NCBI RefSeq assembly: GCF_013122565.1
Contig: NZ_CP053258.1
DNA from: Escherichia coli
GTDB lineage: Bacteria > Pseudomonadota > Gammaproteobacteria > Enterobacterales > Enterobacteriaceae
Strand: one strand, 5' to 3'
DNA length: 64,000 bases
Shown: one piece after another, positions 25,901 through 28,900 of the stretch
Layout: every line of letters starts with the position of its first letter
How positions within the stretch are numbered: the first letter of the stretch is position 1
Made by a program: the position numbers

Positions 25901-28900
25901 TTTTATTCTTACTCCGCACCGCATATGCGGGTGATGCGTGATCTGATAAAGCAGCATCGTTCTCCCATGGAGCTGATGACGATGCTGCGGTGACGTGAGC
26001 TTAAACGGGCTGCCCCTGATGCGACATCCGCGTCGCCAGCGGTAGCCAGCACAGCACGATCAACAATCCCATTAAGGTCATCAACAACCCCAGACTGCCC
26101 TGACCGGTTTGCGGCAACATCGCAGAGAGCGACGCCAGCGCGCCGGAACCAATGTTTTGTAGACCGCCGACCAGCGCGCCAGCCGTGCCCGCCAGGAAAG
26201 GGAACGGCTCCATCGCGCCGCTGGTTGCCAGCGGAAACAGCATCCCGGCACCAAAAAAGAACAGCGCGGCGGGAACGAGCAGCGTCCAGACATTCATCAC
26301 GCCAAACCAGTCGGGGATCCACATCAGTAAGCCAGCCAGCAGGCAGCAGATAACCGACTGCCACATCAACGTTGAGAAGCGTTTATTAGGACGCCCGGCA
26401 AACCATGCCCCAAAAAATGCCGCCGGAATCGGCAGAATAAACAAAATACTGACCGTCATACTGCTCAGCCCTAACACCGCGCCCATCAGCACGCCGGAGC
26501 AGGCTTCAAAGGCGGCAATCCCGGCCAGACCGCCAATCAGCATCAGCAAATAACAGTTAAAACCGCCGTTACCGAAAAGCGTTTTATAACTGGTAAGCAG
26601 GCGCGTGCGCGGTGCGTCGACCGGACGCGTTTCCGGCATCCAGCGGGCCATACTGAAGGTCACACCAGCACAAAGGACCAACAAAAAGAGATAACAGGCG
26701 CGCCAGTTCCACATCGTATCCAGCAGACCGCCGATTAGCGGTGCGAGCAACGGACTGACGAGAATTCCCATGTTTAACAGGCTGTTAGCATGGCGCAACT
26801 GTGTCCGTTCATATAAATCTCGCGGCAAAGTACGCGCCATTACGCCGCCAACGCCGGTGCCCATCCCCTGCATCGCGCTGGCGGCAATCAACACCGTCAA
26901 ACTGGAGGTCGTGACCGCGACTAGCGTTGCCAGCATAAAAATGGACATTCCGACGAGGATCACCGGTCGGCGACCGACACGGTCGGAAATCGGGCCATAA
27001 AACAGCTGTGAGACACCGTAAGTCAGCAGATAAGCGCCCATTACGCTCTGCACCGCCCCTTCACGGACGTTGAGATCGCGCGCCATATCGGCAATAGCTG
27101 GAATATAAATGGTTTGCGCCATCTGACCGACGGCCACGAGTAATACCAACATCAATAACAAATTGACGTTTCTATGCCTTTTCATTATCACGGATGCTTT
27201 TATAAAAATAATTAGAATAAGTCACTACGCATTCCCATAAATGCGGGAGAGGAATCTATCACATTGATAAATGTTAGCCAGATATACGCCAGGAATGGGG
27301 AATTGTTTAGCGGCAGAATATGTAAACAAAAGCGGCAATAAATGTTGCCGGGAGAGATGGTAGGGCGGATAAGATGCGTCAGCATCGCATCCGACTCCAA
27401 CCCGCACGCTAAATATAAAAGGGGAGCGGTTACCCGCTCCCCTTTGGTGCGACTTGAATCTGAATTACTTCAGGTATTTCAGAACAGCATCAAGCAGTTG
27501 CAGTGCTGCAACAATGAGTTTGAGGATAAGAATGGCAATATCCACCAGGCTCATACGCGTCTCCTGTGGTTCAGGAGCACTGCCAGCTGACGTACCTTTC
27601 CGCTGCCTGTTGCCAGCTGTTGTGCACGCGGTATCTCAAGGAGAAACGTTGTGCTTGTTGACATAACACAGTGTGCTCACGCGGGGTTAAGGCGCTGACG
27701 GCACCACCCGTTTCAGCCAGGACTTAGTGCGCCGGGTAACGATGCGGCCCCCGCATAACACATTGCGTACAGTGATATTATAGAAGTTTACTGTATAAAT
27801 AAACAGTAATATTTGGACAAAACGCAAACTGTGATCGATACTCAACTATGCACTAAATACGTCAAAATTCGTGCCGAAATTGCGCGTTCTGCGCGGAACA
27901 GGTATACTTTCAGTGTTGACATAATACAGTGTGCTTTGCGGTTACCAGCCGCAGGCGGCTGACGAAACCTCGCTCCGGCGGGGTTTTTTGTTATCTGCAA
28001 TTCAGTACAAAACGTGATCAACCCCTCAATTTTCCCTTGCTGAAAAATTTTCCATTGTCTCCCCTGTAAAGCTGTGCTTGTATAAATATTGTTAAACACA
28101 AAACCAACAAGGTCCCCAATGACTACTTCCATGTTCAACGCAAAACTACTACCAACTGCGCCATCCGCCGCAGTGGTCGTCGTGCGTGTGGTGGTGGTCG
28201 TCGGCAATGCGCCGTAGGGACTGGAACAACACACGATTCCAAAACCCCGCCGGCGCAAACCGGGCGGGGTTTTTCGTTTAAGCACCTCCCGGAAAGTCGG
28301 CCCAGAAGAAAAGGACTGGAGCATGGCAAGTTCGGGCACAACATCGACGCGTAAGCGCTTTACCGGCGCAGAATTTATCGTTCATTTCCTGGAACAGCAG
28401 GGCATTAAGATTGTGACGGGCATTCCGGGCGGTTCTATCCTGCCTGTTTACGATGCCTTAAGCCAAAGCACGCAAATCCGCCATATTCTGGCCCGTCATG
28501 AACAGGGCGCGGGGTTTATCGCTCAGGGAATGGCGCGCACCGACGGTAAACCGGCGGTCTGTATGGCCTGTAGCGGACCGGGTGCGACTAACCTGGTGAC
28601 CGCCATTGCCGATGCGCGGCTGGATTCCATCCCGCTGATTTGCATCACCGGTCAGGTTCCTGCCTCGATGATCGGCACCGACGCCTTCCAGGAAGTGGAC
28701 ACCTACGGCATCTCTATCCCCATCACCAAACACAACTATCTGGTCAGACATATCGAAGAACTCCCGCAGGTCATGAGCGATGCCTTCCGTATTGCGCAAT
28801 CAGGCCGCCCTGGCCCGGTGTGGATAGACATTCCTAAGGATGTGCAAACGGCAGTTTTTGAGATTGAAGCACAGCCCGCGGTGGCAGAAAAAGCCGCCGC

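What the first reader, a model, noticed from the sequence alone, without database searches (positions are those of the whole stretch)
27465..27990. tisB toxin, LexA box and istR antisense region, absent from the ORF track
The minus strand at 27465-27554 encodes the 29-aa TisB peptide. A perfect SOS box TACTGTATAAATAAACAGTA lies at 27789-27808. A 21-nt segment at 27915-27935 is a near-identical direct copy of 27657-27677 inside the leftward tisAB leader, so a rightward transcript from 27915 would be antisense to the tisAB mRNA, which is the expected IstR-1 pairing region. The 70-aa plus-strand track ORF at 27454..27666 is the antisense artefact of this locus.
Basis: partly seen in the sequence, partly recalled or inferred. 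Interest (0 to 1): 0.45.

Follow-up and report, generated by a model that had tools for sequence, protein, structure and literature searches.

The report
Known tisB/istR SOS toxin-antitoxin locus
This stretch is the well-studied Escherichia coli tisB/istR-1 locus: a DNA-damage-induced 29-residue membrane toxin kept silent by a small antisense RNA. It is intact here, so the finding is correct but ordinary.

Summary
All three sequence observations hold at the stated coordinates. The minus strand at 27465-27554 encodes a 29-aa peptide that passes both NCBIfam TisB equivalog models and Pfam TisB_toxin. It is the N2S form, the commonest E. coli variant. TACTGTATAAATAAACAGTA at 27789-27808 is the only LexA-box-like site in the 64 kb. 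A 22-nt direct repeat (27656-27677 and 27914-27935, 21/22 identical) makes a rightward RNA complementary to the leftward tisAB leader, and the one mismatch becomes a G.U wobble. Rfam istR matches 27860-27989 at 144.8 bits. The locus aligns base for base with K-12 MG1655 in the same emrD-tisB-istR-ivbL-ilvB context. In 16 other distinct Enterobacteriaceae sequences the IstR tail and its target stay complementary, with compensatory changes at two positions. The 70-aa plus-strand ORF has no family hit, and its boundaries are not conserved, so it is a shadow ORF. The mechanism is taken from published K-12 work: LexA represses tisAB, IstR-1 blocks a ribosome standby site about 100 nt upstream of the tisB start, and RNase III cleaves the duplex. 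Expression and toxicity were not tested here. Verdict: already known, correctly read, low interest.

The parts
27412..27445 (-). tisAB intrinsic terminator: 12-bp G+C-rich stem at 27418-27445, then a T-run
   Evidence: Terminator scan and inverted repeat I3. One loop base (27432) differs from K-12.
27465..27554 (-). tisB coding sequence: 29-aa toxin MSLVDIAILILKLIVAALQLLDAVLKYLK, the N2S variant
   Evidence: The DNA is identical to a RefSeq strain whose CDS is annotated TisB WP_000060506.1. N2S is reported as the dominant E. coli variant, about 85% of loci (PMC11264685).
27560..27565 (-). tisB Shine-Dalgarno AGGAGA, 5 nt upstream of the ATG
   Evidence: Read from the sequence. Same hexamer as listed in PMC11264685 Table 1.
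27551..27664 (-). tisA: 37-codon upstream ORF in the leader, reported as not translated. Its ATG lies inside the IstR-1 target.
   Evidence: No family hit. The ATG is ACG in 13 of 18 loci from other Enterobacteriaceae. PMC11264685 reports no evidence of translation.
27656..27678 (-). IstR-1 target in the tisAB leader, overlapping the ribosome standby site. About +93 to +115 if the transcription start is near 27770.
   Evidence: The published standby footprint at +85 to +111 and RNase III product at +106 (PMC6690012) map to 27686-27660 and 27665.
27555..27770 (-). tisAB 5' untranslated leader. The start near 27770 is inferred to within about 2 nt. The +42 processing site would be near 27729.
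   Evidence: The -10 position, plus agreement of the published +42, +85-111 and +106 positions with this numbering. In the predicted fold of the +1 RNA, nt 3-22 pair with nt 84-105.
27777..27782 (-). tisAB promoter -10 hexamer TATAAT
   Evidence: Read from the sequence. Same hexamer as in PMC11264685 Table 1.
27789..27808 (.). LexA (SOS) box TACTGTATAAATAAACAGTA between the divergent tisAB and istR-2 promoters
   Evidence: Identical in K-12. A CTG-N10-CAG box sits at the same place in all 20 other Enterobacteriaceae loci. [quoted passage not shown]
27814..27842 (+). istR-2 promoter: -35 TGGACA (27814-27819), 17-nt spacer, -10 GATACT (27837-27842)
   Evidence: Promoter scan. Same hexamers as in PMC11264685 Table 1.
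27850..27989 (+). IstR-2: 140-nt SOS-induced long form, reported not to repress tisB
   Evidence: Mapped from the K-12 RefSeq ncRNA annotation through alignment A1. Rfam istR covers 27860-27989. Function statement from PMC11264685.
27880..27908 (+). istR-1 promoter: -35 TTGCGC (27880-27885), 17-nt spacer, -10 TATACT (27903-27908). The window has G where K-12 has C at 27901.
   Evidence: Sequence. Hexamers as in PMC11264685 Table 1. The G allele is found in 57 of 5426 E. coli genomes.
27915..27989 (+). IstR-1 antitoxin sRNA (75 nt): single-stranded 5' tail (27915-27936) complementary to the leader, an internal stem-loop, and a terminator hairpin (27964-27987) with a U-run
   Evidence: The K-12 annotation maps to 27917-27989.
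27454..27666 (+). 70-aa shadow ORF antisense to tisB and tisA, not a gene
   Evidence: No convincing Pfam or NCBIfam hit. Not annotated in K-12 or two other RefSeq strains. In other genera the stop-free stretch runs from 32 to 141 codons with unconserved ends. Its third codon positions coincide with those of tisB (coordinate arithmetic).

Best explanation
This is an intact copy of the chromosomal type I toxin-antitoxin locus tisAB/istR of Escherichia coli. Shown here from the sequence: every published part is present and correctly spaced. These parts are the 29-aa TisB ORF with its AGGAGA ribosome-binding site, the long leader carrying the IstR-1 target 102 nt upstream of the tisB ATG, the TATAAT -10, the LexA box between divergent promoters, the istR-2 and istR-1 promoters, the IstR RNA with a free 5' tail, and terminators at both ends. 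Inferred from published K-12 experiments on a leader that is base-for-base identical: LexA bound at 27789-27808 represses leftward tisAB and rightward istR-2 transcription until DNA damage triggers LexA self-cleavage. The primary tisAB transcript cannot be translated, because its 5' end pairs with the standby region. Removing the first 41 nt exposes a single-stranded standby site where a 30S subunit loads through protein S1 and then reaches the structured tisB start site about 100 nt downstream. IstR-1, made constitutively from its own promoter, pairs its 5' 22 nt with that standby site. This blocks 30S loading, and RNase III cuts the duplex to give the inert +106 RNA. Only when tisAB mRNA exceeds IstR-1, after strong SOS induction, is TisB made. 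TisB then inserts into the inner membrane, collapses the proton motive force and ATP level, and pushes cells into a drug-tolerant dormant state.
For: Identity: NCBIfam TisB equivalogs at 69.9 and 61.5 bits, Pfam TisB_toxin at 37.6 bits, and Rfam istR at 144.8 bits over the full 130-position model. Homology and synteny: gap-free alignment to K-12 with few differences, the K-12 annotation of tisB and IstR-1/IstR-2, 5423 of 5426 complete E. coli genomes matching, and the emrD-tisB-ivbL-ilvB context. Pairing: 22-nt repeat and a core duplex of -36.7 kcal/mol, z = -10. Comparative test: 18 of 20 Enterobacteriaceae loci from other species carry a 29-aa TisB homologue (the other two loci are too short), and all 20 carry a LexA box and the IstR tail. 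Over 17 distinct tail-target sequences, 96.4% of duplex cells pair. Compensatory double changes occur at pair 7 (G-C in 11, A-U in 5) and pair 12 (A-U in 15, G-C in 2). Four further pairs change on one side only while staying paired, mostly through G.U. Constraint: only 4 differences in 500 nt of this mostly non-coding stretch against the nearest genome, while about 6-8% of third codon positions differ in emrD, ilvB and uhpB. Folding: the +1 RNA is predicted to pair nt 3-22 with nt 84-105, and the mean unpaired probability of the standby region rises from 0.24 in the +1 form to 0.40 in the +42 form. Mechanism from the literature: PMC6690012, PMC4147584, PMC11264685, PMC9040746.
Against: Nothing in the sequence contradicts it. 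No expression, LexA binding, processing, RNase III cleavage or toxicity was measured for this strain, so all of these are carried over from K-12. The transcription start at 27770 is inferred to within about 2 nt. The predicted gain in standby accessibility between the +1 and +42 forms is modest. The covariation rests on perhaps two or three independent evolutionary events. The leader target was also located with a pattern that fixed most positions, though not those that covary. The window differs from K-12 at 27901 (next to the istR-1 -10) and at 27958 (IstR stem); the effect of these changes is untested.
Confidence: 0.97

Rival explanations
1. The plus-strand 70-aa ORF (27454-27666) is a real protein-coding gene overlapping tisB in antisense.
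For: It is a 70-codon ORF with a TTG start. A stop-free antisense stretch covers the tisB coding region in 18 of 19 loci examined, including the window.
Against: It has no Pfam hit, and its only NCBIfam hit is 12.4 bits against a cut-off of 247. It is not annotated in K-12 or two other RefSeq strains. Across genera the stop-free stretch begins anywhere from 221 nt before the low end of tisB to 10 nt inside it. It ends 16 to 139 nt beyond the tisB start codon. The only conserved residues are those that mirror TisB codons. The flanks carry indels that are not multiples of three: the gap from the tisB ATG to the IstR target is 102 nt against 66-71 nt. Its third codon positions coincide with those of tisB, so the open frame follows from tisB codon usage.
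Confidence: 0.02
2. The 22-nt repeat is a neutral remnant of a local duplication, or a chance match, and the two RNAs do not pair functionally.
For: Outside the 22-nt core the two regions show no significant similarity: the best local alignment score is reached by 7% of shuffles, and the rest of IstR-1 gives a duplex z of -0.8.
Against: A 21/22 match between two sites within 1 kb is expected by chance about 2e-6 times (own calculation). The core duplex has z = -10. Pairing is kept across genera with compensatory changes at two positions, and the other changes mostly keep a G.U pair. The target falls on the published standby footprint and RNase III cleavage site.
Confidence: 0.01
3. The locus is present but functionally altered in this lineage. 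The C-to-G change at 27901, two bases before the istR-1 -10 and inside the IstR-2 5' hairpin, together with the A-to-G change at 27958 in the IstR stem, would shift IstR levels or stability and so shift the TisB induction threshold.
For: Both differences from K-12 are real. Both are minor alleles, in 57 and 48 of 5426 E. coli genomes. Rfam's alignment marks a non-standard pair in the IstR-2 5' hairpin whose 3' side appears to be 27901 (the column was not checked exactly).
Against: The -35 and -10 hexamers and the 17-nt spacer are unchanged. The 27958 G matches the Rfam consensus and turns a U-A pair into U.G. The antisense tail, its target and the LexA box are identical to K-12. Both alleles persist in natural strains.
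Confidence: 0.07

Closest known systems
tisAB/istR locus of E. coli K-12 MG1655 (tisB b4618, istR b4616; Vogel 2004, Darfeuille 2007 and Romilly 2019, as cited in PMC4147584 and PMC6690012)
   Same: Gene order, orientation and spacing are the same, with a gap-free alignment. The LexA box, all promoter hexamers, the tisB ribosome-binding site, the whole leader from the tisB ATG to 27900, the IstR-1 antisense tail and the terminators are identical.
   Different: TisB has Ser instead of Asn at residue 2. This is the majority E. coli form and is reported as somewhat more toxic at low induction (PMC11264685). There is one synonymous change in tisB, one base in the tisB terminator loop (27432), C to G at 27901 and A to G at 27958.
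tisB/istR homologues in other Enterobacteriaceae (Citrobacter, Enterobacter, Kosakonia, Lelliottia, Phytobacter, Pluralibacter, Siccibacter, Superficieibacter, Pseudenterobacter)
   Same: A 29-aa TisB with the conserved core LILKLIVAxLQLLDAVLK, a LexA box about 137 nt upstream of the IstR stem-loop, the IstR tail GTTGAC(A/G)TAAC(A/G)CAGTGTG complementary to the leader, and the same terminator.
   Different: In the E. coli type the distance between the IstR target and the tisB ATG is about 33 nt longer (102 against 66-71 nt). The tisA ATG is ACG in most other genera. E. coli alone carries the U.G wobble at duplex position 11.
dinQ/agrB, zorO/orzO and shoB/ohsC (other E. coli type I toxin-antitoxin pairs with divergent, trans-acting antisense RNAs)
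   Same: A small hydrophobic inner-membrane toxin and a divergently transcribed sRNA that pairs within a long 5' UTR away from the start codon. dinQ is also LexA-controlled, and only a 5'-processed (+44) transcript is translated (PMC4147584; PMC3567139 abstract).
   Different: The peptide and RNA sequences are unrelated. None of these families matched here: only TisB and istR models scored.
hok/sok type I system
   Same: An antisense RNA controls a membrane toxin, and RNase III cleaves the duplex (PMC4147584).
   Different: Sok overlaps its target in cis and acts through translational coupling to the mok reading frame. IstR-1 is encoded in trans and competes with a standby ribosome.

Membership tests
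tisB/istR-1 type I toxin-antitoxin system | A 29-aa hydrophobic TisB peptide recognised by the curated TisB models | tested here: met
   NF011340 69.9 bits (cut-off 53) and TIGR04459 61.5 bits (cut-off 38), both covering 1-29 of 29. PF13939 37.6 bits, cut-off 25. 28 of 29 residues identical to K-12 TisB.
tisB/istR-1 type I toxin-antitoxin system | An IstR sRNA gene encoded divergently from tisB | tested here: met
   Rfam RF01400 at 27860-27989 (+), 144.8 bits against gathering score 45, model positions 1-130 of 130. tisB lies on the minus strand, with its start codon (27554) about 296 nt to the left of the IstR-2 start (27850).
tisB/istR-1 type I toxin-antitoxin system | About 21 nt of complementarity between the IstR-1 5' tail and the tisAB 5' UTR, roughly 100 nt upstream of the tisB ribosome-binding site | tested here: met
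   A continuous 22-bp duplex with one or two G.U pairs, -36.7 kcal/mol, z = -10. The target lies 102 nt upstream of the tisB ATG. Conserved with compensatory changes in other genera.
tisB/istR-1 type I toxin-antitoxin system | A LexA operator at the tisAB promoter | tested here: met
   TACTGTATAAATAAACAGTA at 27789-27808, 6 nt upstream of the -10 TATAAT on the tisAB strand. It is unique in the 64 kb and identical to K-12. Protein binding was not tested.
tisB/istR-1 type I toxin-antitoxin system | Chromosomal context emrD - tisB - istR - ivbL - ilvBN | tested here: met
   ivbL at 28119-28217 matches Pfam IlvB_leader at 75.7 bits.
tisB/istR-1 type I toxin-antitoxin system | SOS induction of tisAB and IstR-2, constitutive IstR-1, 5' processing to the +42 form, and RNase III cleavage to the +106 form | not testable with these tools
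   Carried over from K-12 experiments (PMC6690012, PMC4147584, PMC11264685). The leader sequence is identical to K-12.
tisB/istR-1 type I toxin-antitoxin system | TisB is toxic, depolarises the inner membrane and promotes persisters, and IstR-1 neutralises it | not testable with these tools
   The same N2S peptide was reported toxic on overproduction (PMC11264685). Not measured for this strain.
LexA (SOS) regulon operator | A 20-bp palindrome matching TACTG(TA)5CAGTA with invariant CTG-N10-CAG | tested here: met
   18 of 20 positions match the consensus and both arms are perfect. No match within 3 mismatches in any of 100 shuffles. The looser CTGT-N8-ACAG pattern alone is not significant: 0.59 matches expected.
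Genuine protein-coding gene (the 70-aa plus-strand ORF 27454-27666) | Conserved reading-frame boundaries, or a protein-family match | tested here: not met
   No family hit. The boundaries vary from 32 to 141 codons across genera. Not annotated in RefSeq.

The most novel reading that the evidence does not exclude
The window carries a minor istR allele: G at 27901, two bases before the istR-1 -10 and inside the IstR-2 hairpin, and G at 27958 in the IstR stem. Each is present in about 1% of complete E. coli genomes. If this allele changes IstR-1 or IstR-2 abundance or stability, it would be a natural variant that resets the TisB-dependent threshold for forming persisters.
Probability: 0.06. Interest if true: 0.3.

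Novelty: already known. Interest (0 to 1): 0.07.

Why it matters
tisB/istR-1 is the reference example of a chromosomal type I toxin-antitoxin pair. It is also the reference case of ribosome standby, and a contributor to ciprofloxacin-induced persisters. Finding it intact adds no new biology. It does show that the scan's ORF track misses a functional 29-aa gene and two sRNA forms, and lists a 70-aa shadow ORF in their place. That is useful as a calibration case for the pipeline.

Tried and rejected
(1) Extended duplication. A first duplex prediction paired 70 nt of IstR-1 with the leader at -78 kcal/mol, which suggested that istR-1 might be a long diverged copy of the leader. With the 22-nt core removed, the rest of IstR-1 gave z = -0.8. 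The best residual DNA alignment was reached by 7% of shuffles, and the short similar blocks are not colinear. Rejected.

(3) Pattern scan. About 100 of the 120 matches were chance hits in high-GC genomes, and 21 were Enterobacteriaceae loci, of which one (a second E. coli) duplicated the window. The species list is therefore incomplete; no Salmonella locus was returned, for example.

(4) Covariation inside IstR-1. This was uninformative because the search pattern fixed the stems: 0 compensatory pairs.

(5) A third partial copy of the repeat at 27754-27765 (family D1). It lies in the first 20 nt of the tisAB transcript, which is predicted to pair with the standby region in the +1 RNA. I treat it as part of the known 5' sequestering element, not as a second IstR site.

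(6) TTGACA inside the repeat as a -35 element. No usable -10 follows at either copy (read from the sequence).

(7) Artificial mutation of the window. Differences from the nearest genome are mostly at third codon positions and introduce no stop codons, so the divergence is natural.
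Full report
**Observation**

- **Peptide.** The minus strand at 27465-27554 is an ATG-initiated 29-codon ORF, MSLVDIAILILKLIVAALQLLDAVLKYLK.
- **SOS box.** TACTGTATAAATAAACAGTA occupies 27789-27808. Against the LexA consensus TACTG(TA)5CAGTA it has two mismatches, both in the central AT tract. It is the only site within three mismatches in the 64 kb, and no shuffle produced one. The looser CTGT-N8-ACAG core alone would not be significant, with 0.59 matches expected.
- **Repeat.** 27915-27935 and 27657-27677 are 20/21 identical. The repeat finder extends this to 22 nt, 27656-27677 against 27914-27935, at 21/22 (D2).
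- **Pairing.** tisAB runs leftward, so a rightward RNA containing 27914-27935 is complementary to the leader. The single DNA mismatch (T27925 against C27667) becomes a U.G wobble, and pairing is unbroken. The predicted duplex for IstR-1 nt 1-22 is -36.7 kcal/mol. Shuffled tails give -14.2 +/- 2.3, so z = -10.
- **Plus-strand ORF.** The 70-aa ORF at 27454-27666 exists, with a TTG start.

**Identity**

- **Protein models.** The peptide exceeds the curated cut-offs of both NCBIfam TisB equivalogs, at 69.9 and 61.5 bits, and of Pfam TisB_toxin.
- **RNA model.** Rfam istR (RF01400) matches 27860-27989 on the plus strand over the full model at 144.8 bits; the gathering score is 45.
- **E. coli genomes.** A 901-nt query matched 5423 of 5426 complete E. 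coli genomes, always on the chromosome, under the annotations tisB and ivbL.
- **K-12.** MG1655 annotates tisB (b4618) and IstR-1 and IstR-2 (b4616) between emrD/ysdE and ivbL/ilvB. The window aligns to that stretch without gaps. Through this alignment IstR-2 maps to 27850-27989 and IstR-1 to 27917-27989.
- **Promoters.** The hexamers listed for E. coli in PMC11264685 Table 1 are all present. They are tisAB -10 TATAAT (27782-27777 on the minus strand), istR-2 -35 TGGACA and -10 GATACT (27814-27842, also found by the scan), and istR-1 -35 TTGCGC and -10 TATACT (27880-27908).
- **Other signals.** The tisB AGGAGA ribosome-binding site is at 27565-27560. Terminator hairpins close both transcripts.
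- **IstR-1 start.** A start at 27915 is 7 nt after the -10 and gives the published 75-nt IstR-1.

**Differences from K-12 within the locus**

| Position | Change | Comment |
|---|---|---|
| tisB codon 2 | Asn to Ser (N2S) | About 85% of E. coli loci carry it; confirmed toxic (PMC11264685) |
| tisB | one synonymous change | |
| 27432 | A instead of T | In the tisB terminator loop |
| 27901 | G instead of C | Two bases before the istR-1 -10 and inside the IstR-2 5' hairpin |
| 27958 | G instead of A | Turns a U-A pair in the IstR stem into U.G; matches the Rfam consensus |

The 27901 G and 27958 G alleles occur in 57 and 48 of 5426 E. coli genomes. They are natural minor alleles.

**Comparative test of the pairing**

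I therefore scanned the species-representative genome collection with a pattern taken only from the IstR internal stem-loop and terminator. This left the antisense tail unconstrained. Most matches were chance hits in high-GC genomes, but 21 were Enterobacteriaceae loci.

- Of the 20 loci from other species, 18 contain a 29-aa TisB homologue; the other two are too short. All 20 have a CTG-N10-CAG LexA box at the same distance upstream of the IstR stem-loop. All 20 also have the tail GTTGAC(A/G)TAAC(A/G)CAGTGTG.
- In each locus with enough flank, the tail has a direct-repeat partner 236-258 nt upstream, in the tisB leader.
- I counted the duplex formally on 17 distinct sequences. 96.4% of cells pair.
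- Pair 7 switches between G-C (11 sequences) and A-U (5). Pair 12 switches between A-U (15) and G-C (2).
- Pairs 1, 11, 20 and 22 change on one side only while staying paired, mostly through G.U.
- Sliding the partner strand by 1-3 columns drops pairing to 23-48%.
- The pattern used to locate the leader copy left positions 1, 5, 7 and 12 free to be either purine, so the two compensatory positions were not forced.
- The number of independent events is small, probably two or three. I count this as support for conservation of pairing, not as a statistical proof.

**Constraint**

Over 25 kb the window is only 98.2% identical to its nearest complete E. coli genome. The differences are spread evenly. 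They fall mostly at third codon positions and introduce no stop codons. The source is therefore a natural E. coli-like lineage that is not closely represented in that collection. Against that background, 27500-27999 is mostly non-coding yet has 4 differences in 500 nt. About 6-8% of third codon positions differ in emrD, ilvB and uhpB.

**Mechanism**

The following comes from published K-12 work on an identical leader.

- LexA represses tisAB. [quoted passage not shown]
- The primary transcript is not translatable. Removing 41 nt gives the active +42 mRNA, with a single-stranded standby site about 100 nt upstream of the structured tisB start site. 30S subunits bind there through protein S1, with a footprint at +85 to +111.
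- IstR-1 pairs across that site, and RNase III cleavage yields the inert +106 RNA (PMC6690012; PMC4147584).
- IstR-2 is SOS-induced and does not repress tisB (PMC11264685).

With a start near 27770, which I infer from the -10, these published positions land where they should. The IstR target is at +94 to +114. Position +106 is 27665, inside the duplex. The tisB AUG is at +217. Thermodynamic folding agrees in direction: in the +1 RNA, nt 3-22 pair with nt 84-105, and the mean unpaired probability of the standby region rises from 0.24 to 0.40 in the +42 form. The consensus fold of IstR-1 across genera leaves the first 23 nt single-stranded. Expression, LexA binding, processing and toxicity were not tested for this strain.

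**The 70-aa ORF**

- It has no Pfam hit, and its only NCBIfam hit is far below threshold. It is not annotated in three RefSeq strains.
- Its third codon positions coincide with those of tisB, so its openness follows from tisB codon usage.
- A stop-free antisense stretch over tisB is present in nearly all genera, but its limits run from 32 to 141 codons. Only the residues that mirror TisB are conserved.
- The neighbouring leader carries indels that are not multiples of three.

**Rejected idea**

An initial 70-nt duplex prediction suggested that istR-1 might be a long diverged duplicate of the leader. Outside the 22-nt core there is no signal.

**Verdict**

This is the textbook tisB/istR-1 locus in its majority (N2S) form, with two minor-allele base changes in istR whose effect is unknown. 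It is already known, and its interest is low.

Noticed in passing
window 30500-33600: A low-GC island (0.32-0.38, against about 0.56 in the flanks) lies between ilvN and uhpA. It has two plus-strand ORFs, 30555-31862 (435 aa) and 32077-33573 (498 aa). Neither has a Pfam or PADLOC hit. The island is fully present in 444 of 5426 E. coli genomes and partly present in 1109, at 80-98% identity, always annotated 'hypothetical protein'. It may be an uncharacterised accessory two-gene module.
   Followed up: partly
window 27264-27341 (+): The small protein gene ysdE starts with ATG in K-12 (MNVSQ...), but the window has ATA at 27267-27269. An in-frame TTG lies one codon upstream, at 27264. The annotated start codon is therefore lost in this lineage.
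   Followed up: partly
window 27662-27664 (-) and loci L006, L039, L049, L051, L058, L060, L065, L076, L082, L088, L091, L106, L118, L120: The tisA start codon lies inside the IstR-1 target. It is ACG rather than ATG in most non-E. coli Enterobacteriaceae, and the downstream 'TisA' sequences are not conserved. This fits tisA being non-coding.
   Followed up: partly
window 27555-27656 (-) compared with L005, L006, L039 and others: In E. coli and Citrobacter sp. Awk 4, the distance between the IstR-1 target and the tisB ATG is about 33 nt longer than in the other genera sampled (102 against 66-71 nt). This adds a small hairpin (UCUC-CUU-GAGA) in the predicted folds.
   Followed up: no
window 15000-39999: The nearest of 5426 complete E. 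coli genomes is only 98.2% identical over 25 kb. Differences are evenly spread and mostly synonymous. The source appears to be an E. coli-like lineage that is poorly represented among complete genomes.
   Followed up: partly
window 27333-27410: A REP-like palindromic element (GCCGGATAAGATGCGTCAGCATCGCATCCGAC-type) lies between ysdE and the tisB terminator. It probably explains the second matching place per genome. The istR terminator (27972-27987) also closely resembles the ivbL attenuator terminator at 28241-28278 (D4 and I1).
   Followed up: no
window 28119-28217 (+): The ilvBN leader peptide ivbL (Pfam IlvB_leader, 75.7 bits) has Phe instead of Leu at residue 6 compared with K-12. This variant is shared with many E. 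coli strains.
   Followed up: no
window 13110-13182 (+) and 3141-3183 (-): Rfam gathering-level matches to ROSE_2, the ibpA-type RNA thermometer (100.4 bits), and to the ES036 (CssrF) sRNA (55.5 bits).
   Followed up: no
L049, L060, L076, L082, L088, L091 (about 28 nt upstream of the main LexA box): Several Enterobacter, Lelliottia and Citrobacter youngae-type loci carry a second LexA-like box (CACTGCGAACA...CAGTA) on the tisB side of the main box (lower coordinates in the istR-oriented regions). The window and K-12 lack it.
   Followed up: no
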